Below the pieces are notes generated by a model. It searched no databases and was not told where the DNA came from. It saw only the letters and a list, made by a program, of their open reading frames with translations. Source: Candidatus Nomurabacteria bacterium (lineage in GTDB: Bacteria > Patescibacteriota > Minisyncoccia > Phycocordibacterales > UBA918). From it: a stretch of 64,000 nucleotides of DNA. Numbering within the stretch: position 1 is the stretch's first letter; each line of letters opens with the position of its first letter. The translations under genes and the position numbers were made by a program. Location of the stretch: positions 134,549 to 198,548 of the forward strand of contig JACKGF010000001.1 in assembly GCA_020632095.1 (NCBI GenBank), in the 5' to 3' direction. This document shows positions 2,624 through 50,885 of this stretch, piece after piece.

Positions 2624-2624
2624 T

Positions 2625-4394
2625 ATGATCTTTATAAAAAAACATAGATTAATAGGACAGATACACCCATTTTTTTTAGCGATTCTAATTGGAGTTACAT
2701 TCTTTTTTCTTTCGATCTCTATAACGGAAGCCGCCTCTTTGTCACTGTCACCAAATACCGGGGTGTACTCAACTAATGGTACTTTTTCAGTGAAGGTGCA
2801 AGTCAATACGGGTGGTCAAGCTATTAATGCAGCTGAAGGAACACTTTCTTTCAATCCGAGAGAACTATCGGTCGTATCAGTTAATCGTACTGGTTCAATT
2901 TTCAATTTATGGGTTGCAGAGCCAACCTTTTCTAATAGTGCTGGTACTATAAATTTTAGCGGTGGCTTACCATCTGGTTATAGTAGTGCGGTTGGAAACA
3001 TAATGAATATCACTTTTCGAGCCGCTGGAGCTGGTACCGCTCGGGTGTCATTTACCAATGGCTCAGTGCTGGCTAATGATGGTCGAGGTACCAATGTACT
3101 GACGGCAATGAATGGTGGAACGTACACTATACAAGCACAATCTGAGGCTCCAAAAGCCGAGGTTATTGAATATGTCGCTCCAGCCAATACTCCGGCTGCC
3201 CCGATTGTAAATTCAAAGACTCATGGTGATCAAAAGGCATGGTATAAAAGTAAAGAAGCAATTTTGTCCTGGACACTACCAAGCGGTGTAACTGCTGTAA
3301 GAACTTTGTTGGACGAAAGTCTAACGACAGTTCCTACTAAAGTCTACGAGAACCCAATTAGCACTATTACACTTAGTGATCTACCTGATGGTGAGTCTTA
3401 TTTCCATGTTCAATTTAAAAATGCTGATGGTTGGGGTAAGGTTACTCACTATCGATTAGCAGTCGATAGTGAACGTCCAACTAGTATTGAGATATCTCAA
3501 GCAAGTGGTTATGATTTAGGTAATCCAAACCAAATTTTGAGTGTAAAAGTTGAGGATGAGACTAGTGAAGTGAAAAGGTATAAGGTTAAACTTGATACGG
3601 ACGAACCTTTTGAATACATTGATGAGACTGGTTCCAGCACCATTCCTTTACCAGCGCTTAATCCAGGCTACCACAACGCCTTCATCGAAGCGTTTGACGA
3701 AGCAGGTAATAGTATAACCGGTGCTTTCTCATTTACGATTGAGGCCTTCAGTAAACCAATCTTTACTGATTATCCATCAGAAATAAATGAAGAAGTAATA
3801 CCTGTTATTAAAGGTTTAACTCGACCAAATGCAAAGATTGAGGTGTTTGTGCGTAGAGTTGGCAGTGAACCAAATTCCTACAATATTTCAAGTAATGATG
3901 CTGGAGAATTTGTTTTCATACCAGAAGGAACTTTCCAGACAGGTGTGTATGAATTATCAGCTCAAGCGACTGATGAATATGGCGCTCTTAGTGATGTGTC
4001 AGAAGTGATTAAAATAGCTGTCCAACAGCCTGGTTATTTAAGAGTCGGTTCAATGATTGTAGATGCTCTGTCTGTAGTAATTCCACTTATTGTTTTGGTC
4101 CTTTTCTTGATTGTTGGCACATGGTATTTAATAGCTTACCTTGGTCGCTTTAGGAGACGAGTGCGAGTAGAGTCTTTTGAAGCGTTGGAGATTTTGCATC
4201 GCGAGTTTTCTTCTTTACAGAAAACCTTACGTGATCAAGAGTTAGTAATGATTGAGTCAAGAAAAACTAAGAAATTAACCAAGGCCGAGTCTGATATGAT
4301 TGGTGTGCTTGATAACGCCTTATTGGCTGCACAAAGTAAGGTAGAGAAGGAGATAGAAGACGTGACCGAATTAACCCGTAAGAATAGTAACTAA
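2625..4394 (+). CDS. cohesin-like domain large surface protein with C-terminal TM anchor and coiled-coil cytoplasmic tail (paralog 2)
   Basis: ORF track start 2586 overlaps the upstream gene; in-frame ATG 2625 directly follows the upstream stop (taATATG) and gives a signal peptide (FFLAILIGVTFFFLSISITEA). Domain ASLSLSPNTGVYSTNGTFSVKVQVNTGG...NLWVAEP...NFSGGLPSGY is paralogous to 1508 and 5089. TM VVIPLIVLVLFLIVGTWYLIAY near the C-terminus, then a charged coiled-coil tail. Confidence 0.6.
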   Translation: MIFIKKHRLIGQIHPFFLAILIGVTFFFLSISITEAASLSLSPNTGVYSTNGTFSVKVQVNTGGQAINAAEGTLSFNPRELSVVSVNRTGSIFNLWVAEPTFSNSAGTINFSGGLPSGYSSAVGNIMNITFRAAGAGTARVSFTNGSVLANDGRGTNVLTAMNGGTYTIQAQSEAPKAEVIEYVAPANTPAAPIVNSKTHGDQKAWYKSKEAILSWTLPSGVTAVRTLLDESLTTVPTKVYENPISTITLSDLPDGESYFHVQFKNADGWGKVTHYRLAVDSERPTSIEISQASGYDLGNPNQILSVKVEDETSEVKRYKVKLDTDEPFEYIDETGSSTIPLPALNPGYHNAFIEAFDEAGNSITGAFSFTIEAFSKPIFTDYPSEINEEVIPVIKGLTRPNAKIEVFVRRVGSEPNSYNISSNDAGEFVFIPEGTFQTGVYELSAQATDEYGALSDVSEVIKIAVQQPGYLRVGSMIVDALSVVIPLIVLVLFLIVGTWYLIAYLGRFRRRVRVESFEALEILHREFSSLQKTLRDQELVMIESRKTKKLTKAESDMIGVLDNALLAAQSKVEKEIEDVTELTRKNSN

Positions 4395-4400
4395 TACAAT

Positions 4401-5087
4401 ATGAACACTGAAAAAAAATCAGAATGGTTGAACGTAAAAAATATACTGGTCGCCCTAGTGGGAATAATCGTTATGTACTTCATAGTGACAACATTAGTAG
4501 ACTTAAGGTTTCAGGCCCTAGAGATTGCTACTAAAGTCAGGATTTCTGATCAAGAAGCTTTGCTGGATAAAATTGCAGAAATAACTGCTAGAAATGGAGC
4601 AGATAGTGTTACTGAATCAATCATAAAAGATTGCTCTGTAACTGAGAGAATCCAGTTTGATACTTTACTAGGTCATTTAAATAATGGTTTGGACAAAACT
4701 GAGTTAGTTGAATTGGAGAGGTTGTTTGGTCGTTGTGGAAGATTTTTTTCAGATCGAAAGTCAGTTATGGTATCTCGTTTATCAAGAGAAGTTGAAATAT
4801 ATAGCGATTATGTTGACCAATTAAGTACTATTACTGGTCATAGTCAAACAACATCTTTTCCAGTAGGAGAGTGGGAGGCTCTAGCTAAGGCAGAAAGGAA
4901 ACAAGCTGAGTATTCAGTTGAACTAGTGCGTTTGCAAGATGCAATAATCTCAACTTTGTTATTAGGCAAAAACGCAGAGTCTGAAGAAATTAACGAAATA
5001 CTAAAACAGGTTCAAGAAGTTCAAACAAATTTATATGAAGCAAAAAAAGCTACCATAGATATTACTAATAGCCTGTCTTCTTTGTAA
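4401..5087 (+). CDS. N-terminally membrane-anchored coiled-coil protein, function unknown
   Basis: 228 aa. One N-terminal TM (ILVALVGIIVMYFIVTTLV). The rest is predicted helical/charged. No recognisable catalytic motif. Confidence 0.45.
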   Translation: MNTEKKSEWLNVKNILVALVGIIVMYFIVTTLVDLRFQALEIATKVRISDQEALLDKIAEITARNGADSVTESIIKDCSVTERIQFDTLLGHLNNGLDKTELVELERLFGRCGRFFSDRKSVMVSRLSREVEIYSDYVDQLSTITGHSQTTSFPVGEWEALAKAERKQAEYSVELVRLQDAIISTLLLGKNAESEEINEILKQVQEVQTNLYEAKKATIDITNSLSSL

Positions 5088-5088
5088 G

Positions 5089-5847
5089 TTGATATTTATT
5101 ATGGGTCGAATTGTAAATTACTTTAAAAATATATTTAAAGAAAAACCGAAAAAATATACAATTCGATTCATGTTTCCTGCGCTTATAATGTTCGCGGCTA
5201 TATTTGGAGCCGCAGCAGTAAGTACTAGTCAGCAATCATATATCAGACTTGAGTCGACAGAATCTACTATTGAAGCAGGGAAAAGATTTACCTTAAACGT
5301 TTATGCTAATGCACATGTACCGGTTAACGCTGTAGACGTGACGCTTAAGTTTGACCCTAAGGCAGTAAAAGTGATGGAGGTCGATAGAGGTCAATCTGTT
5401 TTGACTATCTGGACTCAAGATCCAATTATTCAGGAGAACAGTGTCATTCTAAGGGGAGGAACCTTTAAAAGAGGTTTTATTGGTGAACATAAGATTGCTT
5501 CAATTGATCTCTTGGCCCTAAGTACTGGTCAAAGTAGCTTAAGTGCAACTAACGTTGTTTTGTTGGCTGGAGATGGAAAGGGTACTCCGGTGACTGTTGG
5601 TCAAAATGACAAATCATCAGTCAATTTGTATATATATGACGAGAACACTAGTCTCGAAAGTATTGGGGTTAATGTCGCAATTAAAATCATAACTGACATT
5701 GATGGTGATGGTAAGGTTAGTCTAAAAGACATTAGTGCGTTTATGGCAGCATGGGCTAATAAAGACGTTTCTTACGATTTTAATGGTGATGGTAAGATGA
5801 CATTTCGAGACTTCTCTATAATTCTTGCCGATTTCTTCTTTAAGTAA
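5089..5847 (+). CDS. cohesin-like domain protein with C-terminal type-I dockerin (paralog 3)
   Basis: 252 aa. N-terminal TM/signal (FMFPALIMFAAIFGAAAV). Domain SYIRLESTESTIEAGKRFTLNVYANAHVP...LTIWTQDP...RGGTFKRGF is paralogous to 1508 and 2625. The C-terminus DIDGDGKVSLKDISAFMAAW...DFNGDGKMTFRDFSIILADF is a canonical duplicated Ca-binding dockerin repeat. Confidence 0.65.
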   Translation: MIFIMGRIVNYFKNIFKEKPKKYTIRFMFPALIMFAAIFGAAAVSTSQQSYIRLESTESTIEAGKRFTLNVYANAHVPVNAVDVTLKFDPKAVKVMEVDRGQSVLTIWTQDPIIQENSVILRGGTFKRGFIGEHKIASIDLLALSTGQSSLSATNVVLLAGDGKGTPVTVGQNDKSSVNLYIYDENTSLESIGVNVAIKIITDIDGDGKVSLKDISAFMAAWANKDVSYDFNGDGKMTFRDFSIILADFFFK

Positions 5848-6000
5848 CATTTTACATATTTGTCAAGCGTTTTTTTGTTTAAATTTGCTTGATTATCAAC
5901 AGAAAAGTGAATAACCTTGGTGATAAATAGTGGACAACACTGGTATTATTATTGTGTGATGGGAATAATTTGTTATCACAACAAAACTGTTGGGTCATAA

Positions 6001-7881
6001 ATGTCACAAAAAAGTACAAAAATTAAAATCACTAACAATCTATCGACTAGTCAGGGGCGCCGTGCAAGCGAGCGTTCTACTAGGGTATTTGGTGGTGCCA
6101 GAGATCCTTCCGTTCAGGAAACAGTTTTCTTGTACAAGTTAGTTTTCAATACTAGAAAAGCAGTCCTGCTGTCAGTTTTGTTGTTGTTATGTTTTGTGTC
6201 TCAACCATTTCAAAATGTTTATGCTGAAGAAACAACTGCTGACATTGTCCCAGCTTCAGCCAAGGTAGAGATACCTCCAGAATTTACTCAAGAAACTGTT
6301 AAGGCCGAAGTGATTTCGGAAGCACCTAGTCAGAAGAGTGAAGAAATATCAACTGATGTCTCAAAAGATATTGCTTTAGTTGATAATGGCCCGCCAGAAG
6401 TTATCGCTACTGATCAAGAACCTGAAAAAGCTACTTCTAGTAGTGCGGTTGTAGTATCTAAGTCAGCTAGTACAACAAAAGTTGTTTCTGCTGTGACAGA
6501 GGCTAGTGCTTCAAGTAGTGAAATAATAAATATAGACACTTCAAGTATAGTCTCAACTTCAACTCAAAAATCTACCTCGACACTACTTAGTGACGAGTCT
6601 TCAGGTGGCACAAGTGGAGGTTCTGGAACTACTGACTCTAACGAAGATCAAACACCAGATGAAGAGCTAGACTCAGATACTACTGCTTCTAGTACCGAGA
6701 TTACTGACGTTGGTAAAGTCGACAATGAAGAAGTCTCGGCTGATGATAATTCTGTTGATGAGATTAATGACGAGGTTGGGTCGGGTAGTGGTGTATTGGA
6801 AAGTGCAGATGTAGAAATATCTGATGAAGTTGATGAGGTTGGTACAAATGATAATCTAGTCTCATATGTTGAAAGTGACTCACAGTTTTCTTTCCTTAAA
6901 AGTGAATGCACTAGAATTGAAGAAGGTTCATTTTACTGTCAGAAGAAAGACTCTTCTGTACACACAGAAGACTCCTTAGTAGCTGCTCCTGACGCAGATG
7001 GTGATTTGGAAATATACCTAGTACGGGACGGTGAACGGACCCAGATTACACATAATAAAGTCGATGATGCTTCGCCTTACTATGATGAATATTCAAAGAC
7101 AATTGTATGGCACCGTCTGGTAAATGATCGATATCAAATTATTTCTTATGACACCAATACAGGTAAAGAAGTTCAGTTGACTGATACTGATGTTAACAAT
7201 ATGGAACCAACTCGACACGGAGAATACACAGTTTGGCAACGTTGGGTGCATGATAACTGGGAGATAATGTTATTTGATGGTTCTAAAGAGAAACAAATTA
7301 CTAATTCTTCTAGACACGATATTGCTCCACATGTTAGAGGACCATTGATCATATGGAATAGTCGTTCTAACGACGGTACACAGTCTCTAATGACTTATGA
7401 CATTAAAGATAGAACCTATACCACTATTGCTGATGGTGAAGGTGTTTCGGTGTCTAACCCAAGATTGATGGTTATGTATGAAGCGATGTATGAAAATGGT
7501 GATGTTGTGATGAAAGGATTTGACGTGGTAACTGGTAAAATCATGCCCCTTCAATCCTTACCTCAGGAATTGCCGACAGATTTACCAAATACCGATTCAA
7601 CTGGAGAGACTAGAGCCTTAATTCAAACTAAGCCAGCTCCCAAGCAGTCAGAGATAGTGAATAATAATGAAACAACGTCAAGTGGTAGTTCAACTCCACC
7701 TATCTTACCTGACATAGATATTGATCAAACATTAGATTTGCGTGCAACCAGTACTGTCGATATCGAGCAGGTAAACGAAGTGTTTGAGAGTCCAACTTCC
7801 ACTATCCCAGACCTAGTAGTTCCGATCGCTACGTCATCACCTGATACCTCTTCAAGTTCACAGACTACTGCTGAATCATAA
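6001..7881 (+). CDS. secreted Ser/Thr/Asp/Glu-rich protein with C-terminal TolB/PD40-like beta-propeller repeats
   Basis: 626 aa. Hydrophobic signal/anchor (AVLLSVLLLLCFVSQPF). Long acidic S/T-rich low-complexity middle. The C-terminal half has repeated motifs typical of TolB-like propeller blades (GDLEIYLVRDGERTQITHN..., YQIISYDTNTGKEVQLTD..., WEIMLFDGSKEKQITNS..., QSLMTYDIKDRTYTTIADGEG). Confidence 0.55.
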   Translation: MSQKSTKIKITNNLSTSQGRRASERSTRVFGGARDPSVQETVFLYKLVFNTRKAVLLSVLLLLCFVSQPFQNVYAEETTADIVPASAKVEIPPEFTQETVKAEVISEAPSQKSEEISTDVSKDIALVDNGPPEVIATDQEPEKATSSSAVVVSKSASTTKVVSAVTEASASSSEIINIDTSSIVSTSTQKSTSTLLSDESSGGTSGGSGTTDSNEDQTPDEELDSDTTASSTEITDVGKVDNEEVSADDNSVDEINDEVGSGSGVLESADVEISDEVDEVGTNDNLVSYVESDSQFSFLKSECTRIEEGSFYCQKKDSSVHTEDSLVAAPDADGDLEIYLVRDGERTQITHNKVDDASPYYDEYSKTIVWHRLVNDRYQIISYDTNTGKEVQLTDTDVNNMEPTRHGEYTVWQRWVHDNWEIMLFDGSKEKQITNSSRHDIAPHVRGPLIIWNSRSNDGTQSLMTYDIKDRTYTTIADGEGVSVSNPRLMVMYEAMYENGDVVMKGFDVVTGKIMPLQSLPQELPTDLPNTDSTGETRALIQTKPAPKQSEIVNNNETTSSGSSTPPILPDIDIDQTLDLRATSTVDIEQVNEVFESPTSTIPDLVVPIATSSPDTSSSSQTTAES

Positions 7882-7913: not shown

Positions 7914-10900
7914 ATGTATCAACTGCGCACATTAGAACGTGTTAAAAGTAGTGTTTCTGCAGGATTGATTTTTTCAATTGCTATGCAGCTGTTTGGAGTT
8001 TTGCTACTGCAGATTGTTTTATTGTACCCACAGGCGGTTGAAGCAGCTGAGGTGGTGATTGATAGTACAGTAAGTACGAATGCGGCTGCTAACACATTTG
8101 CTGGTGCGCAGACAGCTTTTACTGATGATCAAACCGGCTATACTTTTTATCGAGATAGTAATAACACTTGTGTTTATAGTAAGACTACTGATGGAGGAAA
8201 TACGTGGGGTTCTGCTGTTACTGTCGATAGTCAAACTGACTGTCTGGAAATTGTTATTTGGTACGACCGTTGGACTCCGGGTGATAGTACTGGAAATTAC
8301 ATTCATATTTCCACTATGGACAGTGGGGATGATGACCTTTTTTATAATCGTCTCGATACAACCAGTGATACTCTGTTGATGGGGTCTGCACCGGTTAATG
8401 TTTCAACCAGTTCTGGACAAGTGCCATCATTGGCAAACACTGTTAACGCTCAGACTATTACCAAAGCAACTGACGGTAAAATCTACATGGCTGTTAATGA
8501 CGTGAGTGATTCATTTGTGGTGTCTTGCTCTGCGAGTTGTGAAACTGAGTCAAATTGGACTGAAGTTGGGACTAGCCCATATGACAGTACAAATGACTTT
8601 AACTTACTAGTTCCTCTGTCAGGAGGAAATGTAATGACCATAAACAGAGATATTTCAGCTGATGATATCCGTTCGGCAATTTGGGATGGAGCTAATTGGT
8701 CGGGGTGGACTAATATTGATATTAACGCTCCTGAAAATTCAACTTTCGATGTCGGGATGTCTGTCACTGTAGATGTTGATACCGGGAGCATCTATCTGGC
8801 TTATGTTGCTGATAATAACGACATGGTAACGGCGGATCATGATATTAGAACAGCTGTCTATACGTCTGGGGTTTGGACAAATAAGACAGACGTTTTGACC
8901 AATGTCTCTGGCCGGGGTATTCATAATACAGCTATTGCCTATGATCAAAATAAAGGTGATGTGTATGTTTCTTATGCAATTGAGGATACTATTGGTACTC
9001 CTACTAGCGCCAATATCTATTGGAAGAAATCAACAGATGGAATGACTACTTGGGGCACAGAACAAGGCCCGATCAATACTACCAGTGGAAATATATATGG
9101 CCCATCATTAAACCTAAATAGTCACGAAAGAATTTATGCTACTTGGTATGATCCAGCAGTTAATGATCGATTTGGTAATACTGTGGCTGATATCGGGCCC
9201 GATACTATTTTGGCCTCAATCGGAACTCAGGTTTCGTCAATCAAGACCAATGATACAGGTGTATATCTAGGGGGTGCATTTACAGTTAAATCGATTTCTA
9301 GTCGAACTATTTCTACTTTTAAAATTACAGAGAAAGGCACTGTTGATGCACAAAATGATTTGAATAACATTAAACTTTTTTACGACCTAGATGTTTCTTT
9401 TCCATACGACTGTGTTAGTGAATCATACTCCGGTGGAGAGTCTCAATTTGGTGTGACAGATACCAATGGTTTCTCTGGAGTTGATGGCACATCAAATTTT
9501 ACCGGTTCAATTGTTAATGTGACACCGACTCAGACTATGTGTGTGTATGTTGTGCTTGATGTATTGAGTACAGCCAATGATACTGATACGATTGAAATTG
9601 AAGTTACAAATCCTTCTACTGATGTAACAGTTTCTGGCGAAACTGTTTATCCTGCTACATCGATTGAAATAGCTAGTACTACAAATATCGTTAGTCCAGA
9701 TTTAACCCAAATTCACTATCATTGGCGAAATGATGATGGAACAGAAAGTGGAGCAACCTCAGCTACGGCTGGTGCGGAAGACACTCCCATTAGTTCACTA
9801 ATAAAAGAGACTCCGATCAGGCTACGTATGGAAGTCTCAAATGAAGGTTCAACCTCAACTGATGCAACGTTTCAGCTTGAATACGGTCTAGCGGCGCCAA
9901 CCTGTGGTGATGTTGCTAGTTGGACTGACGTAGGTGCAACTGATGATGCTTGGAATATGTATCCGACCGCTAATTTAAACGATGGTGATAGTACGACGGA
10001 TATTTCAAATACAATCGGTGGAGTCACTTTTGAAAATTCAAATTTTCTGAGTCCAAACTATGGTGTTAAAGATGCATTCTCAACGACTAGTAGTTTGACT
10101 CTCGATACTATAGATTACGTTGAATTAGAGTTTTCATTAGTAGCCTCTAGTTCTGCGGTGGAAGGAGAGACGTATTGTTTTCGGCTGACTGATTCTGGTA
10201 CGCCATTAAACACTTACAGTGTTATTCCACAAGCGACAATCAGCGCCGATATTATAGCGGCAGCAGTTGGGACTCATATAACTAATGCTGACATACCGAC
10301 TACCGCCGCTTATCTGGGGGGCTCATTTTCACTAAAGTCAACTTCTGGCTCACATACAATCACTAACGTTACAATTACTGAAACTGGAACGATTGATGCC
10401 TCGACCGGGCTTAGTAATATAAAATTATTCTATGAATCGGATCTGAGTAATCCTTACGATTGCACCAGTGAATCCTACGCAGGAACCGAGACTCAGTTTG
10501 GTGGTACAGATACTGATGGATTTAGTGGTCCAAATGGTACTTCGACTTTTTCTGACTCGGTTGGCATTACGGCTACCAGCACGTTGTGTTTGTATGTTGT
10601 TTCAGATATTACCACCTTACCAATTAATGGTGAAACAGTATCTTTTCAAATCACTTCACCAACCTCTGATGTAGTGGCAGGGGCTTCTTCTGTCGCTCCG
10701 GGTACACCTATTTCAATTACAGCCTCTACTACCTTGCAAGGTGGGCTCCTTACCCAAACACATTATCATTGGCGATACAACAATGGTGGTGAAAGTACTT
10801 CAACTTCAGCCACTTTTGGAAACGAAGATACTCCGGTTACAGATTTTGATTTGTCTTCAAAGATTCGCCTTCGTCTTGGTGTTTCAAATGAGGGTGCTAC

Positions 10901-13900
10901 TTCGTCAGTTGCTACTAGATTTAGACTAGACTATGCCCCTAAGATTACTACCTGTGATGTGGTGTCAGTTTGGACCGATGTTAATGGTGTTGCAGATGAT
11001 AGTTGGGATATGACAGACTCTATATATCTAACTAACGGTGAGGATACAGCTAATATTGCTGAAGCGATTGGTGGTTTAACTGATGAAAACAGCAATTATC
11101 TATCCTCAAACGGTGGAGTTAGGGATACTGAATCATTGACAGCCAGTACAACCTTGACGGAGTTAAACTATGTGGATTTGGAATACAGCATCAAGTCAAC
11201 CATCAGTACCCCAAATGATGCAACTTTCTGCTTTAGGGTTAGTGCCAACGGCACGTCACTACCAGCTTATACAAATTACGCTGAAATTACAACAGCTAAA
11301 AAACGCGATTTTAAGGTACAGCGTGGAACTACCACAATTTCTGGCACATCGGTTACATTGGTGGCTGGAGTTGACTACGATGTGCCTCAGGTTGCCACCT
11401 CTTCATTTATCCGTATTACAAATAGTCACTACACTGGTGCTGGAGATACAACTCTTGGTGGTGCCCAAAATGCTGACGATGTAACTGCTTATATCTCCAA
11501 TCCAGAAAATATTCTTACAAGTGTTACTTTTAATCGGTTGGGTGCAGTTAATGATACTTATATTGATTGGGAGATAGTAGAGTTTGTAGGTACTCCAAGT
11601 ACCGATAATGAGATGGTGGTTAGAGACGTGGGGTCGGTAACTATTAGTAGTGGGGCGCTAGTGGCAACAGGCACAACAATATCAGTTACCGATGATAGTG
11701 ATGTAGTAGTTTACATCACTGGTATTAGAAATCGAAACACCTCAAGAAACTACTACGCTGGACAAGTAACGTCAGCTTGGGATGCTGCAAGTGATGCGCC
11801 CGTATTTACTAGAGGTGCTACTGGAGGTTCTATTGTTGACGTTAGTTATGCAGTAGTTGAGTATGTTGGTATGAATTGGAATATCCAACGAGCTGAACAT
11901 ACCTACACCGCGTCAGGTGTACCTGAACCAGAGGCAATTACACCGGTTGGTTCCTTGTCTCAAACATTTATTCATGCCCAGAAACGAATGGGAGCAAGTA
12001 CTAATGTGGTACATTTTGGACATACCGTTTGGTTGCCTAGCATCAGCTATTTATCGCTTGAACTTGAAACTGGTGCTGATACAGGTGTTGGTCAAACTGC
12101 CGTTGTATGGATAATAGAAAATACTCAAACTGGTTCAAATGCAATGCAGGTTCAAAGATTGAGTGGAAACACTTCTGGTGGTGCTGAACCGTTAATATTA
12201 GAAATCGGTATACCAATTCATCTTGATTCTAGCAGTAATAGTTCAATTTTTGTAAGTAGTAGGGCAGCTGGTACTAATAATGGCTACCCTCGACCGATAA
12301 TGGGTGCCAGAATTACTTCGACATCAACCCTAGAATTATGGCGAAGTGACACCGGGACAACTCTTAATTATAGAATTGAATTAGTAGAATGGCCGGTGGC
12401 TGACTTAGCTCAGAGACAAAATTACTATCGATTTTACGTAGATAATGACGCATTAACCCCAAGCGACCCTTGGCCAGCTGGTGCTACCAACCTTGGAGAG
12501 AACACTAGTATTACCGATGCTGACGATCCTCCGGGGGCGGATGTTTACTTAAGACTTCGTATGTCAGTACGTATTGCAAATGCAAATCTTCCCGCTGGAT
12601 TTCAACAATACAAACTGCAGTACGCAGAAAGGGCGGTAACTTGTTCAGCTACTACTGATTGGCACGATCTGGGTGATACTGCTAGCTCAAGTATATGGCG
12701 TGGCTATCCGGGGTCAGGTACTAGTGATGGAGATAATTTGTCATCAGATCCGTATTTGCCGGGTGACTTGTTAATTTCAGTGTCTGACGTGGCTGGTCGA
12801 TTGGAGCATGAAAACCCATCAGCCGTAAACTCATATCCTGTGCTTGATGGGGAAGATGTTGAGTATGATTGGTATATTCAACATAATGGAGCAAATCCAG
12901 ATACTGTCTATTGTTTCAGAATGATAAAAGATGATGGATTGCTACTAGAAGGCTATCTAAATTACCCACAAATTAAAACAGCTGGTTTTCAGCCAGCTTC
13001 AAAGAATTGGCAGTGGTACGATGATCCTGATAATGAGACACCAGCTAGTCCAGCCGCAGCTGAAAATGTCACGCCAAGCAATATTGCAATTGACGATACT
13101 TTAGCTCTCCGAGTGACTGTTAAAGAATTATCAAACGTTCCTGGGGCAGATATTAAATACAAACTGCAATTTTCTGATGATATAAACTTTGTTAATCCTG
13201 TTGATGTTGTGGCAACTAGTTCTTGTGTTGAGAATTCCCTTTGGTGCTACTACGAAGGTGGGGGAGTTGACAATGATCTAATTACAACCTCACTGCTAAC
13301 TGATGGGGATGGGTGTGTTGGTGGAGCGGGTAATGGTTGTGGAACTCATAATGAATCAGCTACGTATGTAACCGGACACCTACATGGTGCTACTAGAGCT
13401 CAGGAATATTCATTCACGATTAAGCAAGCAGGAGCGCGGGTAAATGCCATTTATTATTTTAGACTGGTTGAAATACTTAGTTCTGATGTTGTAATTCTGG
13501 ATACCGGTGAAACCTATCCGTCAGTACAAGTTGGTCCTTCGACTTTGTCATTCTCGGTGGCTGGTTTGCCGGCTGGTACTACAACCGCTAGTGTGGTGAC
13601 AGATGCTACTACTACAGCAACTAGTGTTGGTTTTGGTTCGATTCCGTTTAATAATGATCAGATAGCTGCTCAGAGAATTTCAATTAGCACAAATGCTACT
13701 GAAGGTTACCAAGTCCTTCAATACGCTGGTCAGGATTTGACTAGTAGTAATGGAACAACAATTAATTCTGTAAGTTCAACCAACGCCACTCCGAGCGGTT
13801 GGGCGACAGCTTGTCTCGGAACAGCTACTGGCTGTATCGGATACCATACGACTGATGCGATTTTGGAAGGTGGATCAGCTCGTTTTGCACCGTCGGACAC

Positions 13901-14057
13901 CTATGCACCTCTACATACCGATCCACAAGAAATTATCTATAGTTCAGTTCCAGTCGATAGTACAGAGGATGTTGTGTATCGGGTGATGGTAACTGAAATG
14001 CAACCAGCTGGAGATTATGAGACTAACATTGTCTATATAGCCGTTCCGGTCTTCTAG
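7914..14057 (+). CDS. giant (2047 aa) secreted surface protein: N-terminal BNR/sialidase-like propeller, two ~349-aa tandem repeats, several R-W-x-N-D-D-G modules, C-terminal PVF domain
   Basis: Signal peptide (IFSIAMQLFGVLLLQIVLLYPQAVEA). BNR motifs S-x-D-x-G-x-T-W (SKTTDGGNTWGS, KKSTDGMTTWGT). Tandem repeat aa ~430-660 vs ~780-1010 (YLGGAFTVKS...HYHWRNDDGTESGATSATAGAEDTP...IRLRMEVSNEG vs YLGGSFSLKS...HYHWRYNNGGESTSTSATFGNEDTP...IRLRLGVSNEG). Similar modules recur (YYRFYVDND..., NWQWYDDPDNE...). The C-terminal domain is shared with 291..1436. Confidence 0.7.
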   Translation: MYQLRTLERVKSSVSAGLIFSIAMQLFGVLLLQIVLLYPQAVEAAEVVIDSTVSTNAAANTFAGAQTAFTDDQTGYTFYRDSNNTCVYSKTTDGGNTWGSAVTVDSQTDCLEIVIWYDRWTPGDSTGNYIHISTMDSGDDDLFYNRLDTTSDTLLMGSAPVNVSTSSGQVPSLANTVNAQTITKATDGKIYMAVNDVSDSFVVSCSASCETESNWTEVGTSPYDSTNDFNLLVPLSGGNVMTINRDISADDIRSAIWDGANWSGWTNIDINAPENSTFDVGMSVTVDVDTGSIYLAYVADNNDMVTADHDIRTAVYTSGVWTNKTDVLTNVSGRGIHNTAIAYDQNKGDVYVSYAIEDTIGTPTSANIYWKKSTDGMTTWGTEQGPINTTSGNIYGPSLNLNSHERIYATWYDPAVNDRFGNTVADIGPDTILASIGTQVSSIKTNDTGVYLGGAFTVKSISSRTISTFKITEKGTVDAQNDLNNIKLFYDLDVSFPYDCVSESYSGGESQFGVTDTNGFSGVDGTSNFTGSIVNVTPTQTMCVYVVLDVLSTANDTDTIEIEVTNPSTDVTVSGETVYPATSIEIASTTNIVSPDLTQIHYHWRNDDGTESGATSATAGAEDTPISSLIKETPIRLRMEVSNEGSTSTDATFQLEYGLAAPTCGDVASWTDVGATDDAWNMYPTANLNDGDSTTDISNTIGGVTFENSNFLSPNYGVKDAFSTTSSLTLDTIDYVELEFSLVASSSAVEGETYCFRLTDSGTPLNTYSVIPQATISADIIAAAVGTHITNADIPTTAAYLGGSFSLKSTSGSHTITNVTITETGTIDASTGLSNIKLFYESDLSNPYDCTSESYAGTETQFGGTDTDGFSGPNGTSTFSDSVGITATSTLCLYVVSDITTLPINGETVSFQITSPTSDVVAGASSVAPGTPISITASTTLQGGLLTQTHYHWRYNNGGESTSTSATFGNEDTPVTDFDLSSKIRLRLGVSNEGATSSVATRFRLDYAPKITTCDVVSVWTDVNGVADDSWDMTDSIYLTNGEDTANIAEAIGGLTDENSNYLSSNGGVRDTESLTASTTLTELNYVDLEYSIKSTISTPNDATFCFRVSANGTSLPAYTNYAEITTAKKRDFKVQRGTTTISGTSVTLVAGVDYDVPQVATSSFIRITNSHYTGAGDTTLGGAQNADDVTAYISNPENILTSVTFNRLGAVNDTYIDWEIVEFVGTPSTDNEMVVRDVGSVTISSGALVATGTTISVTDDSDVVVYITGIRNRNTSRNYYAGQVTSAWDAASDAPVFTRGATGGSIVDVSYAVVEYVGMNWNIQRAEHTYTASGVPEPEAITPVGSLSQTFIHAQKRMGASTNVVHFGHTVWLPSISYLSLELETGADTGVGQTAVVWIIENTQTGSNAMQVQRLSGNTSGGAEPLILEIGIPIHLDSSSNSSIFVSSRAAGTNNGYPRPIMGARITSTSTLELWRSDTGTTLNYRIELVEWPVADLAQRQNYYRFYVDNDALTPSDPWPAGATNLGENTSITDADDPPGADVYLRLRMSVRIANANLPAGFQQYKLQYAERAVTCSATTDWHDLGDTASSSIWRGYPGSGTSDGDNLSSDPYLPGDLLISVSDVAGRLEHENPSAVNSYPVLDGEDVEYDWYIQHNGANPDTVYCFRMIKDDGLLLEGYLNYPQIKTAGFQPASKNWQWYDDPDNETPASPAAAENVTPSNIAIDDTLALRVTVKELSNVPGADIKYKLQFSDDINFVNPVDVVATSSCVENSLWCYYEGGGVDNDLITTSLLTDGDGCVGGAGNGCGTHNESATYVTGHLHGATRAQEYSFTIKQAGARVNAIYYFRLVEILSSDVVILDTGETYPSVQVGPSTLSFSVAGLPAGTTTASVVTDATTTATSVGFGSIPFNNDQIAAQRISISTNATEGYQVLQYAGQDLTSSNGTTINSVSSTNATPSGWATACLGTATGCIGYHTTDAILEGGSARFAPSDTYAPLHTDPQEIIYSSVPVDSTEDVVYRVMVTEMQPAGDYETNIVYIAVPVF
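9190..9890 (+). repeat. intragenic tandem repeat unit 1 (period 1047 nt) inside the giant protein gene
   Basis: The unit anchored at Y-L-G-G (nt 9264) is repeated at nt 10311. Protein-level identity is roughly 45-50% over ~230 aa; the DNA copies are diverged. Confidence 0.6.
10240..10940 (+). repeat. intragenic tandem repeat unit 2
   Basis: Second copy of the ~349-codon unit (YLGGSFSLKS ... FRLDYA), with matching landmark motifs. Confidence 0.6.
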
Positions 14058-14077: not shown

Positions 14078-15088
14078 ATGAATCGTCTAATAATTAAATT
14101 TGCAGGTGTCCTATTGTTACTGGTTTTGTTGATACCGACAAATTTAGCTTTCGCTGCAATCACTATACGGCCTTTTTTGATAGACGAAACCTACCAGCCT
14201 AGAGACTCAGAAGTAAAAACAATTACTTTGACGAGTGATTATCCTAGTCGTAAAGCGGTTTTGTATGCGACTGTTAATGAAATTACGGTTGATTCAGAAG
14301 GAGAGATAAAAGAGTTTGTTACACCAGTAATGACCGACAGGACTAACACTGTCACAAGTTGGGTAGAAATTACTAGAGGCAGGATTGAGTTAATGCCAGG
14401 TGAAAAAATTGAAGTACCCCTCAAACTAAAAATTCATCCTTATGCAGAGCCCGGAGAGTATCATGTTTTTATCGGCTTTGTTGAGACACCTAAGCGAGAC
14501 CAGGCAGAAGCTGTTGCAATGGCAGGTAAAGCTGATGGGGTGATTGTGAAAATTACTATTGCTGATGATAGAGAGGACAGTATGAAGATAAGTAGCTTTC
14601 TGATTGATCGTTTTGTTACCGGTGAAGATAAGCGTCTGATAGATATTGAGGTTGAGAACCTTGGTGATTTACCGTCTGCACCCAAGGGTGAAATTGTTTT
14701 CTATGACTCGAGAGGTGTTGAAATCAATTCTGTGCCAGTTAATAGTGAAGGAGTCGTAATTGAGCCTGGAGAGAAAGCTAGTCTAAAAAGTTCGGTACCG
14801 CTTGATGATACTTTAGGTAGATTCAAGGCTAATGTAACTTTAAATTACGGTGACAAAATGCAGGCGTCTTTGTTTGACACCACATCATTTTACATGATGC
14901 CTATGAACTTACTCTTAATGGTATTTGGCAGTATTTTAATATTGTCCATAATTGTCGCTCTCCTGTTCAGAAGGATGCTAGCTGGTGAGGCTAGGGATGA
15001 AGATGGAGATGAAGTTGTAATGTATATCCGTGAAGGCCATGACGCTAATCCGCAAGACCATGACATTGACCTTAAGAACAAAGCTTAA
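14078..15088 (+). CDS. secreted two-domain protein with C-terminal TM anchor and acidic tail (DUF916/DUF3324-like architecture; paralog of the next gene)
   Basis: 336 aa. Signal peptide (FAGVLLLLVLLIPTNLAFA). N-terminal block ITIRPFLIDETYQP...SWVEITRGRIELMPGEKIEVPLKLKIHPYAEPGEYHVFIGF parallels ISISPTIFEASANPGQ...EWLSVKHETLKIPSEQSIQVPFSISVPSDAPPGGHF in the next gene. C-terminal TM LLLMVFGSILILSIIVALLF. The family name is a guess. Confidence 0.55.
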   Translation: MNRLIIKFAGVLLLLVLLIPTNLAFAAITIRPFLIDETYQPRDSEVKTITLTSDYPSRKAVLYATVNEITVDSEGEIKEFVTPVMTDRTNTVTSWVEITRGRIELMPGEKIEVPLKLKIHPYAEPGEYHVFIGFVETPKRDQAEAVAMAGKADGVIVKITIADDREDSMKISSFLIDRFVTGEDKRLIDIEVENLGDLPSAPKGEIVFYDSRGVEINSVPVNSEGVVIEPGEKASLKSSVPLDDTLGRFKANVTLNYGDKMQASLFDTTSFYMMPMNLLLMVFGSILILSIIVALLFRRMLAGEARDEDGDEVVMYIREGHDANPQDHDIDLKNKA

Positions 15089-16700
15089 CATATTCCTCAC
15101 TCTAGTGTTTGTAGCAATATTGTTGCTGCCGCTATTTACCTTTGCTCAAGGTAAACAGACTATTAGTATTTCACCGACCATTTTTGAAGCTTCAGCCAAT
15201 CCTGGGCAAGTTATAAATAGTGAAGGGGTTAAGATTATAAATTCAAATCCTTATGAATTAGAGGTCTATATAGATGTGGTAAATTTTGAGGCCCAAGGTG
15301 AGTCAGGTCAAGGAAAATTTATTCCATTAGTTGAAAGTGAGTTAAAAGGTAATACGATCGCTGAATGGCTATCAGTTAAGCATGAGACACTTAAGATTCC
15401 ATCAGAACAGTCGATTCAAGTACCATTTTCTATATCAGTTCCATCTGATGCTCCACCAGGTGGACATTTTGCTGCTATTTTGGTTGGTACAAAATCTATT
15501 AATAATGACGAGAAACAAACTAAGGTTGAAACTTCACAAGTAGTAACATCATTAGTTTTTTTGCGTGTGGCAGGCGATGTTTTAGAACAGGGTTCAATTC
15601 GAGAATTTCGTAGTACAAAATTGATCTCAGAGTCACCAAAAGTAACGTTTGAATTGCGGTTTGAAAATAAGGGTAATGTGCATATACAGCCACAAGGAGA
15701 CATAAAGATTTTTAATATGTGGGGGCAAGAAAGAGGTGTTATTCCAGTAAATAGGCAAACTATGTTTGGTAATGTTTTACCAAAAAGTGTTAGGAAGTAC
15801 TCTTTCACTTGGTCAGGACAGTGGTCTATGGCTGATATGGGTCGCTACACTGCCGTCGCTACACTAGCGTACGGTCAGGACAGTAAGCAGTTTGCGTCAA
15901 GCGAGACAAATTTTTGGGTAATACCGTGGAAGATTCTAAGTCTAGTGTTACTAGTTGTGATTGGTTTTGTTGTTTTAGTTTCTTGGGCAATTAAATTATA
16001 TATAAGAAAAATGTTGGCTATTGCTGGAGTGTCTCCCGAGCTTCATAATGTTAAACAGCATGTTCGACCATCTAAGCGATCACAGGTTTCTGTAGTGGCA
16101 CCAATTGAAGCTGGAATTCTTGATTTGAGTTATCGTATGCGTGGTACTGAGTCTTGGCTTGATAAACTAAAGGCGGTTTCATCTTTTGTGAGACAGTACA
16201 AAATTTTCTTTATCGTAGTTGTGGCTGTAGTACTATTTGTATTAGCTACTATTTGGTACGTACAGTCAGCTTCGGTTGCTAAGCGTGGCTATGAAGTAAC
16301 AATTGAAGGGATGGGTGACAATATGAAAATTTCCTCCGAGCAGGTTGCTTATGATGAGCTGGTAAATACTACTGAGGGAACACACGGTCTAAATACAGAT
16401 TCAAATGTTAAAGAGTTTCCTGCCATATCCTTAGTTAATCAAAGTGGGGTCAGTGGTCTAGCAGCCGAGCTGAAGTTTGATCTTGAGTCTAAAGGTTACG
16501 AGATTGAAAACCTGACCAATGATCTAGATATAACTAAAGTTAATACAGTAATAGTTTACGCAACTGAGTTTTCTAAGGAAGCGCTTGAGTTAAGTAAAGA
16601 TGTAAATGATGCTTTATTATCAGCCTTTGATGGTGAAACAAAAGAAGGAACGCCGATTACAATTTATGTCGGGCAGGATTATGAAAATGAGGTACAATAG
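15060..16700 (+). CDS. secreted/membrane protein, paralog of 14078 gene, with central TM helices and C-terminal LytR_C-like domain
   Basis: ORF track start 15030 overlaps the previous gene by 58 nt. ATG 15060 gives a signal peptide with a positive n-region (MTLTLRTKLNIFLTLVFVAILLLPLFTFAQG). TMs LSLVLLVVIGFVVLVSWAI and IFFIVVVAVVLFVLATIWYV. C-terminal ~100 aa (ISLVNQSGVSGLAAELKFDLESKGYEIENLTND...TVIVYATEF...ITIYVGQDYE) resembles LytR_C. Confidence 0.55.
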   Translation: MTLTLRTKLNIFLTLVFVAILLLPLFTFAQGKQTISISPTIFEASANPGQVINSEGVKIINSNPYELEVYIDVVNFEAQGESGQGKFIPLVESELKGNTIAEWLSVKHETLKIPSEQSIQVPFSISVPSDAPPGGHFAAILVGTKSINNDEKQTKVETSQVVTSLVFLRVAGDVLEQGSIREFRSTKLISESPKVTFELRFENKGNVHIQPQGDIKIFNMWGQERGVIPVNRQTMFGNVLPKSVRKYSFTWSGQWSMADMGRYTAVATLAYGQDSKQFASSETNFWVIPWKILSLVLLVVIGFVVLVSWAIKLYIRKMLAIAGVSPELHNVKQHVRPSKRSQVSVVAPIEAGILDLSYRMRGTESWLDKLKAVSSFVRQYKIFFIVVVAVVLFVLATIWYVQSASVAKRGYEVTIEGMGDNMKISSEQVAYDELVNTTEGTHGLNTDSNVKEFPAISLVNQSGVSGLAAELKFDLESKGYEIENLTNDLDITKVNTVIVYATEFSKEALELSKDVNDALLSAFDGETKEGTPITIYVGQDYENEVQ

Positions 16701-16703: not shown

Positions 16704-17213
16704 TTGAGGATTACTTGTAATTTTATGCTTATGAGCCAGAAATCTATTATTTTATTTGTCACACTATTTGTCTTAATTGTGGCTGGGATGTTCATCTACG
16801 CTAATCTAAAGAATAGCGAATTAAAGAATAAAAACGAAGAAACAGTTGAAGTTGTCGAAGAACAGGTGGTTCCATATCCTGATATTACTCGTATCGACGC
16901 TAAGCACTACTTCATTGACGGTAAACATACTTTGGTGGGGGAGGTTAATTTTCCAACACCGTGTGATCTACTAGAATCAGAGGCGGTAGTAATGGAATCT
17001 TTTCCAGAGCAAGTCAGAGTTGATTTTAATGTGATTAATAACTCTGATTCTTGTGTGCAGGTAGCTACAGCCCAACGCTTTAAAGTTGAAGCTACAGCTT
17101 CTAGTGAGGCTACCTTCAGTGCTACTTTTATGGGTAGAGATGTTACGTTAAATCTTATTCCTGCGGCAGAAGGAGAAACTCCTGAGGAGTTCGAGTTGTT
17201 TATCAAGGGTTAA
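16704..17213 (+). CDS. small N-terminally anchored extracytoplasmic protein, unknown function
   Basis: 169 aa. TM IILFVTLFVLIVAGMFIYA. Start may be the internal M at MLMSQKS. Confidence 0.4.
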   Translation: MRITCNFMLMSQKSIILFVTLFVLIVAGMFIYANLKNSELKNKNEETVEVVEEQVVPYPDITRIDAKHYFIDGKHTLVGEVNFPTPCDLLESEAVVMESFPEQVRVDFNVINNSDSCVQVATAQRFKVEATASSEATFSATFMGRDVTLNLIPAAEGETPEEFELFIKG

Positions 17214-17217
17214 GTGA

Positions 17218-17778
17218 ATGCTAGTGACATTAGATAAATCAAATTACAAAACACTGCTATTTTTGTTTCTGGTAGTACTAGGAATGGCTGTTTTAACATG
17301 GTTTGTACTAAATCGAAAACAGGATACCGTCGAAGTCCCTGCGGTTAAAGCACTTGAAGCTCCGCAAGACCAATCACCATTTACTGACCTTGAAGGTAAC
17401 GCTGTTGGTTTAACGAGTTACGTTGGTGAAGTAATTGTCGTTTCCTCATGGGCCAGTTGGTGTCCAAGTTGTGTTGATAGTTTAAAAGAACTTTCCCTGC
17501 TGTCTGGATTATATGGTGATGAGGTTAAAATTCTGGCAGTAAATCGCAGTGACCAAGCAAACATCGCTAAAGCTTTTTTGAAGAAATATGAAATTTCAAA
17601 TACGGTGGAACTTGTATTGGATGAAGATGATAGATTTTTTAAAAAAATTGATGGCTACACCATGCCGGAAACAGTTATTTATGACCACAAAGGAAGAGAA
17701 GTTTTTCACAAACATGGAGTAACTTCAGTGGTTGAATTGAAATTAATAATTGATGAGATTTTGGTTGAGGGAGAGTAG
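17218..17778 (+). CDS. TlpA/ResA-like membrane-anchored thiol-disulfide oxidoreductase (thioredoxin fold)
   Basis: 186 aa. N-terminal TM (TLLFLFLVVLGMAVLTWFVL). Thioredoxin CxxC active site WASWCPSC. Length and layout fit the TlpA family. Confidence 0.75.
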   Translation: MLVTLDKSNYKTLLFLFLVVLGMAVLTWFVLNRKQDTVEVPAVKALEAPQDQSPFTDLEGNAVGLTSYVGEVIVVSSWASWCPSCVDSLKELSLLSGLYGDEVKILAVNRSDQANIAKAFLKKYEISNTVELVLDEDDRFFKKIDGYTMPETVIYDHKGREVFHKHGVTSVVELKLIIDEILVEGE

Positions 17779-50881: not shown

Positions 50882-50885
50882 AATA

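What the first reader, a model, noticed from the sequence alone, without database searches (positions are those of the whole stretch)
7914..14057. 2047-aa surface protein combining BNR/sialidase-like repeats, a diverged 349-codon tandem duplication and recurrent R-W-x-N-D-D-G / E-D-T-P / R-L-R modules
The two BNR signatures (SKTTDGGNTWGS, KKSTDGMTTWGT) place a sialidase-like propeller at the N-terminus. Two ~230-aa blocks with period 1047 nt follow, each ending in HYHWR[NY][DN][DG]G-ES...(N)EDTP...IRLR(M/L)xVSNEG. Similar ~100-aa modules recur three more times (YYRFYVDND...YLRLRMSV; NWQWYDDPDNE...LALRVTV). The conserved Trp/Arg/Asp pattern looks like a carbohydrate-binding beta-sandwich, which would make this a large lectin or glycan-binding adhesin. 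The DNA copies are diverged, so the duplication is old and presumably selected.
Basis: partly seen in the sequence, partly recalled or inferred. Interest (0 to 1): 0.55.

Follow-up and report, generated by a model that had tools for sequence, protein, structure and literature searches.

The report
Giant adhesin subunit of Pam-type pilus
This 2047-residue secreted protein of an ultra-small (Patescibacteria/CPR) bacterium ends in the pilin domain of the recently discovered "Pam" pilus and sits in a pilus-like operon, so it is most likely a giant adhesive pilus subunit rather than a free-standing lectin.

Summary
The ORF (7914-14057, +) is real. Its 349-codon tandem duplication is highly significant: 47% amino-acid identity, z = 45.7. 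The "RWxNDDG/EDTP/RLR" motifs mark a ~178-aa all-beta module (B) present four times.

They match NCBIfam NF058581, the C-terminal domain of Pam pilus pilins, at E 9e-8 over the whole model. They are also 33% identical to the C-terminal half of a 381-aa pilin-like neighbour (291-1436).

Two downstream genes encode signal peptide + two beta domains + C-terminal TM proteins. They hit DUF916/WxLIP, and their layout is that described for the PamC/D membrane chaperones.

Gene order is identical in all five orthologous loci examined. Relatives of the protein occur in 57 species-representative genomes, nearly all Patescibacteria.

Architecture: signal peptide, BNR-like propeller, (A-B)x2, unique 375-aa beta region, B-B, linker strand, Pam pilin domain.

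Best reading: a giant adhesin subunit joined to a Pam-like pilus by donor-strand exchange. The propeller fold and glycan binding remain untested. I rate it a new variant of a known kind, of moderate to high interest.

The parts
7914..14057 (+). Gene for the 2047-aa giant protein. About 99 full-length orthologs of 2001-2062 aa were aligned, and a 2413-2477-aa variant also exists.
7914..8045 (+). aa 1-44: N-terminal signal peptide / hydrophobic segment, ...LLYPQAVEA|AEVV. The cleavage site is inferred.
   Evidence: Sequence inspection. The same A-x-A-type site is present in the neighbouring pilin.
8046..9185 (+). aa 45-424: BNR/Asp-box beta-propeller-like head domain with two canonical Asp-boxes. 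It is duplicated in the long variant.
   Evidence: Sub-threshold; fold not modelled.
9186..9710 (+). A1 module (aa 425-599): beta-sandwich with a conserved Cys pair.
9711..10232 (+). B1 module (aa 600-773): the HYHWRNDDG...EDTP...IRLR...YCFR domain.
10233..10757 (+). A2 module (aa 774-948), tandem copy of A1.
10758..11285 (+). B2 module (aa 949-1124), tandem copy of B1.
11286..12410 (+). U region (aa 1125-1499): unique all-beta region of about 24 strands, with no significant internal repeat.
12411..12983 (+). B3 module (aa 1500-1690), YYRFYVDND...YLRLRMSV.
13008..13538 (+). B4 module (aa 1699-1875), WQWYDDPDNE...LALRVTV.
13545..14054 (+). aa 1878-2047: a linker beta-strand (TLSFSVAGL) followed by the Pam-pilin C-terminal domain, ending ...YIAVPVF.
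291..1436 (+). 381-aa two-domain pilin-like protein: signal peptide, beta N-terminal domain, linker strand, Pam-pilin C-terminal domain. It is the presumed polymerising partner.
14078..15088 (+). 336-aa protein with signal peptide, two beta domains and a C-terminal TM helix. DUF916/WxLIP-like; candidate PamC/D-type membrane-anchored chaperone.
15030..16700 (+). 556-aa paralog of the previous gene, with an extra cytoplasmic/LytR_C part. Second candidate chaperone.
1508..7881 (+). Five co-oriented genes that keep their order in every orthologous locus. 1508-2623 and 2586-4394 have cohesin-like N-domains and C-terminal TM helices. 4401-5087 is a TM coiled-coil protein. 5089-5847 carries cohesin + dockerin. 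6001-7881 is a Ser/Thr-rich TolB-like propeller protein. Their role in the apparatus is unknown.
16704..17778 (+). A small N-terminally anchored protein (16704-17213) and a redoxin/TlpA-like thiol-disulfide oxidoreductase (17218-17778). A DsbA gene lies here in two of the five orthologous loci (L001, L005). Plausibly they serve disulfide formation in the Cys-paired domains.

Best explanation
The protein is a giant adhesin-type subunit of a Pam-like, donor-strand-exchange pilus of a Paceibacteria/Nomurabacteria-type CPR bacterium.

Proposed mechanism, with shown and inferred steps marked:
1. It is exported by Sec through its N-terminal signal peptide (inferred from sequence).
2. Its roughly ten beta domains fold outside the membrane, each locked by one conserved Cys pair. 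The adjacent thiol-disulfide oxidoreductases probably assist (the pairs are shown; the role is inferred).
3. Its C-terminal Pam-pilin domain is an incomplete Ig-like fold in the solved PamA/PamB filaments. It is first held by the two membrane-anchored DUF916/WxLIP-like proteins encoded just downstream, then completed by the linker strand of the 381-aa pilin encoded at 291-1436. Further pilins add below (inferred by homology to the Pam system).
4. This places the 1830-residue N-terminal part on the filament, most likely at or near its distal end, as with FimH and PapG. That part consists of a stalk, (A-B)x2-U-B-B, capped by a BNR-like propeller.
5. The conserved propeller head binds a conserved ligand on a partner cell or surface, possibly a glycan (inferred, not tested).
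For: **C-terminal pilin domain**
- NF058581 CPR_Pam_pilin_C matches the isolated C-terminal domain at E 9.3e-8 across model positions 3-148 of 148.
- All 11 C-terminal domains tested match it (six from giant proteins, five from small pilins); best E 1.5e-10.
- aa 1878-2047 align with aa 197-381 of the neighbouring 381-aa protein at 33.5% identity, E 2e-14. The alignment includes the preceding strand, and both proteins end ...Y-x-A-x-P-V-F.

**Published model**
[quoted passage not shown] They polymerise when the linker inserts into the neighbour's open C-terminal domain.
- It predicts from AlphaFold models that the chaperones PamC and PamD are two-domain proteins with a C-terminal TM helix.

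**Downstream genes**
- They have exactly that layout.
- They are paralogs of each other (E 1e-17).
- Pfam WxLIP_PGBD matches 8 of 12 members, best E 1.5e-7. EfmWxLIP1 in the PDB matches at E 0.01.

**Conservation**
- Each of the five distinct orthologous loci examined holds exactly two proteins with the pilin domain and the two chaperone-like genes, in the same order.
- Of the 150 listed B-module proteins, 57 end in this same pilin domain. Their architectures range from B-B-CTD (465 aa) to this one, so B-B-CTD is a recurrent pilin-like core.

**Physical properties**
- The models are all-beta and high-confidence.
- The 20 Cys form 10 local pairs.
Against: - The match to the Pam pilin model is below NCBI's curated cut-off (32 bits against 55).
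- PamA/PamB sequences and structures could not be compared directly; they are absent from the PDB copy searched.
- No multimer prediction was possible, so donor-strand complementation between the pilin linker and this domain is not shown.
- The giant protein keeps the linker-like strand that tip subunits (PamT, FimH) lack. A tip position is therefore not assured.
- No PamT-like or PamR-like gene was recognised in the cluster.
- The published survey found Pam pilins mainly in Saccharimonadia and Microgenomatia, not Paceibacteria.
- The nearly indel-free conservation of length and of the head domain is unusual for an adhesin.
- Profile comparison of the chaperone-like family with FimC was negative.
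Confidence: 0.6

Rival explanations
1. It is a WxL-cluster-type "large" surface protein. The C-terminal domain does not polymerise. It docks the protein non-covalently on the cell surface in a complex with the membrane-anchored DUF916/WxLIP-like proteins, as proposed for Firmicute WxL/Csc clusters. The 381-aa protein would be the "small" partner.
For: - The downstream genes are DUF916/WxLIP-like.
- The cluster composition matches the WxL cluster definition in PMC10599100: one small and one large protein sharing a C-terminal domain, plus proteins built as two Ig-like domains and a TM helix.
- An E. faecalis WxL cluster fetched for comparison has the same gene logic.
Against: - No match to the Pfam WxL domain at E <= 10.
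- Profile comparison of the C-terminal domain with three WxL domains gave only 24 aligned columns at 3.6% probability.
- The dual W-x-L motif is absent.
- The domain does match the Pam pilin model, whose founding members form filaments in cryo-EM.
Confidence: 0.2
2. It is a surface-displayed glycoside hydrolase (sialidase-like) for nutrient scavenging. The propeller would be catalytic, and the beta modules would be spacers or binding modules.
For: - Two Asp-boxes.
- A near-threshold BNR_2 match, plus a weak match to sialidase B.
- The head domain is among the best conserved parts of the protein, as expected of an active site.
Against: - BNR_2 covers many non-enzymatic propellers.
- The full-length family profile found no solved structure at E <= 10. 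The propeller-only profile found only one 48-residue Asp-box match, to sialidase B, at E 0.044.
- Catalytic residues were not identified.
- This reading does not explain the pilin domain, though it is compatible with pilus display.
Confidence: 0.1
3. It is a structural envelope or S-layer-like component of fixed geometry rather than an adhesin.
For: Length is strikingly constant (2001-2062 aa), with almost no indels, over 50-70% identity across about 99 orthologs. Conservation is uniform along the chain.
Against: - No S-layer, SLH or similar domain was found.
- A 10-domain beads-on-a-string protein ending in a pilin domain fits a fibre better than a lattice.
- A variant with a second propeller exists, so the geometry is not strictly fixed.
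Confidence: 0.07

Closest known systems
PamA/PamB pilins of the Pam pilus of Ca. Mycosynbacter amalyticus (bioRxiv 10.64898/2026.03.03.709456; NCBIfam NF058581)
   Same: - A signal peptide, and a C-terminal domain that matches the family model end to end.
- A beta strand immediately upstream of that domain.
- Paired cysteines.
- Encoded with a second pilin and with membrane-anchored two-domain proteins.
- Restricted to CPR bacteria.
   Different: - The score is below the curated cut-off.
- The 190-330-aa N-terminal sandwich is replaced by about 1830 aa: a propeller plus roughly nine beta domains.
- It comes from a different CPR class (Paceibacteria-type).
- The operon additionally contains cohesin/dockerin-like genes, and no recognisable PamT or PamR.
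- Polymerisation is not shown.
Two-domain tip adhesins of chaperone-usher pili (FimH, PapG)
   Same: Functional layout: the receptor-binding part is N-terminal and the pilin domain is C-terminal. The pilin domain accepts a donor strand from the next subunit.
   Different: - No sequence relationship was detected.
- There is no usher and no outer membrane.
- The protein is about seven times larger.
- It retains a linker-like strand that FimH and PapG lack.
Large WxL proteins with WxLIP (DUF916-DUF3324-TM) in Firmicute WxL/Csc clusters (PMC10599100; PMC1534035)
   Same: - The cluster logic is the same: small and large proteins sharing a C-terminal domain, next to a protein built as two Ig-like domains and a TM helix.
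- The neighbours here hit DUF916 and EfmWxLIP1.
   Different: The C-terminal domain is not detectably a WxL domain. No LPXTG partner is present.
Fibrillar adhesins (a stalk of repeated Ig-like domains with a distal binding domain)
   Same: A beads-on-a-string beta stalk with a distinct terminal head domain. Foldseek matched PrgB Ig-like domains and the AspA C-terminal domain.
   Different: - Anchoring is through a pilin-type domain rather than LPXTG/sortase or a T1SS.
- Domain number is fixed and strongly conserved rather than variable.

Membership tests
Pam pilus pilin (NF058581 CPR_Pam_pilin_C; Troman et al. 2026) | Significant, end-to-end match of the C-terminal domain to the family model | tested here: met
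   E 9.3e-8, model positions 3-148 of 148. 11 of 11 orthologous and paralogous C-terminal domains match, best E 1.5e-10.
Pam pilus pilin (NF058581 CPR_Pam_pilin_C; Troman et al. 2026) | Score reaches NCBIfam's curated cut-off (55 bits) | tested here: not met
   32.3 bits for this protein and 27.4 bits for the neighbouring pilin. The full-length protein gave no hit at E <= 0.1.
Pam pilus pilin (NF058581 CPR_Pam_pilin_C; Troman et al. 2026) | Single linker beta-strand between the N-terminal part and the C-terminal domain (the donor strand) | tested here: met
   A conserved F-[ST]-V-x-G-[VL] strand at aa 1878-1884 aligns with the pilin's TLFTFTVNGV. It is predicted as a strand, E756-762 of the model. 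Whether it is actually donated is not testable here.
Pam pilus pilin (NF058581 CPR_Pam_pilin_C; Troman et al. 2026) | Compact nine-strand beta-sandwich N-terminal domain | tested here: not met
   The N-terminal part is 1830 aa and multi-domain. The pilin N-terminal domain versus module B scored only 41% probability.
Pam pilus pilin (NF058581 CPR_Pam_pilin_C; Troman et al. 2026) | Operon with other pilins and membrane-anchored two-domain chaperones (PamC/D) | tested here: inconclusive
   The layout matches. The comparison with FimC was negative.
Pam pilus pilin (NF058581 CPR_Pam_pilin_C; Troman et al. 2026) | Polymerisation by donor-strand exchange into a filament | not testable with these tools
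BNR/Asp-box sialidase-like beta-propeller (Pfam BNR_2; GH33) | Asp-box motifs S/T-x-D-x-G-x-T-W | tested here: met
   Two canonical copies, at aa 91-98 and aa 373-380.
BNR/Asp-box sialidase-like beta-propeller (Pfam BNR_2; GH33) | Pfam gathering score reached | tested here: not met
   30.6-30.7 bits against 31.4. Six of 12 orthologous domains hit at E <= 0.1. Several orthologs carry precomputed PF13088 hits.
BNR/Asp-box sialidase-like beta-propeller (Pfam BNR_2; GH33) | Six-bladed propeller fold with the catalytic Arg triad, Tyr/Glu pair and Asp | not tested
The only related evidence is an internal blade-like repeat at 72% probability and a NanB blade match at E 0.044.
WxL cluster large protein (Firmicutes) | Adjacent WxLIP (DUF916-type) protein with a C-terminal TM helix | tested here: met
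   PF06030 matches 8 of 12 members, best E 1.5e-7. EfmWxLIP1 matches at E 0.01. tblastn finds DUF916 proteins.
WxL cluster large protein (Firmicutes) | C-terminal WxL domain with the dual W-x-L motif | tested here: not met
   No Pfam WxL hit at E <= 10. hhalign against three WxL domains gave 3.6% probability. The motifs are absent.

The most novel reading that the evidence does not exclude
The CPR Pam pilus and the WxL/Csc clusters of Gram-positive bacteria would be two branches of one ancient monoderm surface-assembly system. In that system, membrane-anchored DUF916/WxLIP-type two-domain proteins chaperone an incomplete C-terminal Ig-like domain.

This giant protein would be the CPR counterpart of the "large WxL" host-binding protein. 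If so, WxL proteins would assemble by strand complementation, and Pam-type pili would carry modular giant adhesins built from the unannotated B domain. B has 3699 cluster representatives, some outside the CPR.
Probability: 0.3. Interest if true: 0.8.

Novelty: new variant of a known kind. Interest (0 to 1): 0.6.

Why it matters
How CPR/Patescibacteria cells recognise and hold on to partners is a central open question, and the Pam pilus was described only in 2026 without any adhesin.

- **A testable candidate.** This is a conserved, single-copy giant subunit carrying the Pam pilin domain. It gives a concrete candidate for the recognition end of such filaments in the large, uncultured Paceibacteria group. 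The head domain could be expressed and tested directly.
- **A new domain family.** The work defines a widespread surface domain that has no model in Pfam or NCBIfam (module B).
- **A link between two systems.** The Pam operon shares a component (DUF916/WxLIP) with the Gram-positive WxL clusters. Study of either system could therefore inform the other.

Tried and rejected
**Searches that gave nothing specific**
- Plain self-BLAST reports only the identity hit. Chunked BLAST with masking was needed.
- Sequence searches against solved structures found nothing for the whole protein, the full-length family profile or the C-terminal domain profile. The small pilin gave only one chance-level hit, to PCNA at E 0.18.
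- Foldseek of the two high-confidence models against the PDB and BFVD returned only generic multi-sandwich proteins: integrin alpha, alpha-2-macroglobulin, PrgB, and the non-catalytic parts of Bacteroides sialidases. TM scores were 0.1-0.36, so no fold family could be named. A "tail-fibre-like" reading has no support.

**Comparisons that were inconclusive or negative**
- WxL domain versus Pam C-terminal domain: not significant.
- Pilin N-terminal domain versus module B: suggestive only, 41% probability.
- Chaperone-like family versus FimC: negative.

**Other dead ends**
- The search for related loci with the C-terminal domain alignment failed because no stretch was conserved enough.
- The "Permuted_GreAB-C" and "DUF4082" Pfam hits are chance-level.
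- Cluster look-ups gave no taxonomic names for the short B-B-CTD proteins.

Full report
**1. The observation**

The window holds an uninterrupted ORF at 7914..14057 (+) of 2047 codons. It is tightly packed between co-oriented genes, with a 32-nt gap upstream and a 20-nt gap downstream.

Ordinary self-BLAST hides internal repeats. Chunked BLASTP against a self-masked copy shows aa 425-773 repeated at aa 774-1122, with E down to 2e-42.

Profile-profile comparison on a 99-ortholog alignment gives E 1.5e-59 for the first half and 4.7e-65 for the second half. Global identity of the two copies is 47% at protein level and 58% at DNA level, and the alignment score lies 45.7 SD above shuffles.

The unit consists of two different domains: A (about 175 aa) and B (about 178 aa). 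E-[DN]-[TV] ... [RA]-[LVI]-R ... E-Y ... Y-[CY]-F-R. It recurs twice more, at aa 1500-1690 and aa 1699-1875 (E 1e-15 to 4e-9). There are therefore four B copies, not five, and the module is about 178 aa, not ~100.

**2. Architecture**

The order along the chain is:
- signal peptide, aa 1-44
- BNR-like head, aa 45-424
- A1-B1-A2-B2, aa 425-1124
- a unique all-beta region U, aa 1125-1499
- B3 and B4
- a short strand followed by a C-terminal domain, aa 1878-2047

AlphaFold2 with 74 aligned sequences gives pLDDT 95.8 for A1-B1 and 91.4 for aa 1123-2047. Both models are essentially all-beta.

The 20 cysteines fall into 10 domain-local pairs, and these positions are invariant or nearly so in the orthologs. 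Apart from a sub-threshold BNR_2 match, neither Pfam nor NCBIfam recognises anything in the full-length protein.

**3. The decisive feature is the C-terminus**

- aa 1878-2047 are 33.5% identical (E 2e-14) to the C-terminal half of the 381-aa protein encoded at 291-1436. Both proteins end ...Y-[IV]-A-x-P-V-F.
- On its own, this domain matches NCBIfam NF058581 "CPR_Pam_pilin_C, Pam pilus system pilin subunit" across model positions 3-148 of 148, at E 9.3e-8.
- All 11 such domains taken from six loci match it, best E 1.5e-10. All score below the curated 55-bit cut-off.

The family was defined in a 2026 preprint (bioRxiv 10.64898/2026.03.03.709456). Its main points are:
- Cryo-EM of Ca. Mycosynbacter amalyticus filaments shows pilins built as N-terminal sandwich, linker strand and truncated Ig-like C-terminal domain.
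- They polymerise because the linker fills the neighbour's open C-terminal domain.
- From AlphaFold models, the proposed chaperones PamC and PamD are PapD-like two-domain proteins with a C-terminal TM helix.
- The paper names no adhesin and does not mention Paceibacteria.

**4. Context**

Immediately downstream lie 14078-15088 (336 aa) and 15030-16700 (556 aa). They are paralogs (E 1e-17), each with a signal peptide, two beta domains and a C-terminal TM helix. Evidence that they belong to the DUF916/WxLIP family:
- Eight of 12 family members hit Pfam WxLIP_PGBD (DUF916), best E 1.5e-7.
- The family profile finds EfmWxLIP1 structures at E 0.01.
- tblastn finds annotated DUF916 proteins on Enterococcus, Clavibacter, Streptomyces and Deinococcus plasmids.

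Five distinct orthologous loci were examined; two of them were also recovered on second contigs. All share one gene order:
- 380-aa pilin
- two cohesin-like TM proteins
- TM coiled-coil protein
- a ~250-aa protein (cohesin/dockerin-like)
- Ser/Thr-rich propeller protein
- giant protein
- two DUF916-like proteins
- small TM protein
- redoxin (preceded by a DsbA gene in L001 and L005)

Each locus has exactly two proteins carrying the pilin domain. Four of the five also have a weaker third DUF916-like gene upstream. Nothing else in the window carries these domains.

**5. Family and domain distribution**

The protein has 334 detectable relatives. The full-length orthologs listed are 2001-2062 aa and 50-69% identical, with almost no indels. 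All that carry a name are called "hypothetical".

A 2413-2477-aa variant has the N-terminal head duplicated. Relatives occur in 57 species-representative genomes, nearly all labelled Patescibacteria: Nomura-, Kaiser- and Taylorbacteria, Paceibacteria and Parcubacteria. The few labelled otherwise are probably mis-binned.

An exhaustive profile search with module B finds 3699 cluster representatives at E <= 1e-3 and 423 at E <= 1e-30. They hold up to 21 copies each and range from 342 to 6179 aa. None of ten sampled has a Pfam domain over B. One is a Chloroflexota protein with a prepilin N-methylation motif and 13 B copies.

Of the 150 listed, 57 end in the Pam-type C-terminal domain. Their architectures range from B-B-CTD (465 aa) through A-B-U-B-B-CTD to the present Prop-A-B-A-B-U-B-B-CTD. 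B-B-CTD is thus a recurrent pilin-like core on which larger heads and stalks have been built.

**6. Mechanism**

The best-supported reading is as follows:
- The protein is exported by Sec and folds with disulfides.
- The C-terminal pilin domain is chaperoned by the membrane-anchored DUF916-like proteins.
- That domain is completed by the linker of the small pilin, so the protein is joined to a filament.
- The 1830-residue stalk and propeller head act as the recognition end.

What is shown: the domain homologies, the operon, the conservation and the all-beta models. What is inferred: strand exchange, position on the filament and the ligand.

Two observations temper the FimH analogy. First, the giant protein retains the linker-like strand. 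Second, the head is as conserved as the rest of the protein. The second point argues for a conserved ligand rather than a host-variable one.

**7. Rivals**

- A WxL-type non-filamentous surface complex is the main alternative. The neighbours are WxLIP-like, and the cluster logic equals that of Firmicute WxL clusters. However, the C-terminal domain is not detectably a WxL domain.
- A catalytic sialidase-like head is possible but unsupported beyond Asp-boxes and near-threshold BNR_2 matches.
- An S-layer-like role is suggested only by the constant length.

**8. Verdict**

The "lectin" interpretation is only partly supported.

The feature is best described as a giant adhesin-type member of the newly described Pam pilin family, in a different CPR class and with a new architecture. 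That makes it a new variant of a known kind. It is of moderate to high interest because it offers a testable candidate for partner recognition in uncultured Paceibacteria and ties the Pam operon to the DUF916/WxLIP world.

Noticed in passing
window 14078-16700; L001, L003, L005-L007 (alignment A5): The candidate Pam chaperone genes belong to the DUF916/WxLIP family of Gram-positive WxL clusters: Pfam PF06030 in 8 of 12 members, and PDB EfmWxLIP1 at E 0.01. The Pam pilus preprint never mentions WxL. The two systems may be homologous.
   Followed up: partly
window 9711-10232, 10758-11285, 12411-12983, 13008-13538; P0121-P0269: Module B is a large domain family with no model in Pfam or NCBIfam. 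It has 3699 cluster representatives and up to 21 copies per protein. It also occurs outside the CPR, for example in Chloroflexota MFC1925596.1, which has a prepilin N-methylation motif and 13 copies. Of the 150 listed, 57 end in the Pam pilin domain.
   Followed up: partly
window 1508-2623, 2586-4394, 5089-5847: Three operon genes share a cohesin-like N-terminal domain (E 1e-5 to 3e-14 between them). The third also has a dockerin/EF-hand-like C-terminus. Two end in a TM helix. All keep their place in every orthologous locus. This hints at a cohesin-dockerin-type surface scaffold next to the pilus genes.
   Followed up: no
L003 10001-17326; L007 10001-17401 (P0021, P0044 and others): A 2413-2477-aa variant of the family carries two tandem copies of the N-terminal BNR-like head (aa 10-491 of the query matches twice).
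   Followed up: partly
window 6001-7881: The gene directly upstream encodes a 626-aa protein with a TM segment, a long Ser/Thr/Asp/Glu-rich low-complexity region and a weak TolB-like propeller match (E 3.8e-5). It is conserved in synteny and its function is unknown.
   Followed up: no
window 47618-52445 (- strand): An AcrB-type RND transporter (E 1e-176) is paired with an HlyD-type membrane-fusion protein. CPR bacteria are generally regarded as monoderm (background knowledge, not tested here), so this is an odd pairing if no outer membrane is present.
   Followed up: no
window 402-470 (mature N-terminus of the 381-aa pilin) and orthologs (A9): The small pilin has a very conserved mature N-terminus, A-x-V-x-S-x-S-D-T-L-S-D-S-x-P...N-H-T-I-x-F-x-T-P. 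This may be an assembly or modification signal.
   Followed up: no
L066 5173-5799 (Clavibacter plasmid); L068 3758-7864 (E. faecalis plasmid): The WxL-type proteins next to DUF916 genes end in ...A-G-D-Y-S-S-T-I-T-L/W-x-L. This resembles the ...A-G-D-Y-E-T-x-I-x-Y-x-A-x-P-x-F end of the Pam-type domain. The similarity is confined to about 24 residues and is not significant (E 0.012, 3.6% probability).
   Followed up: yes
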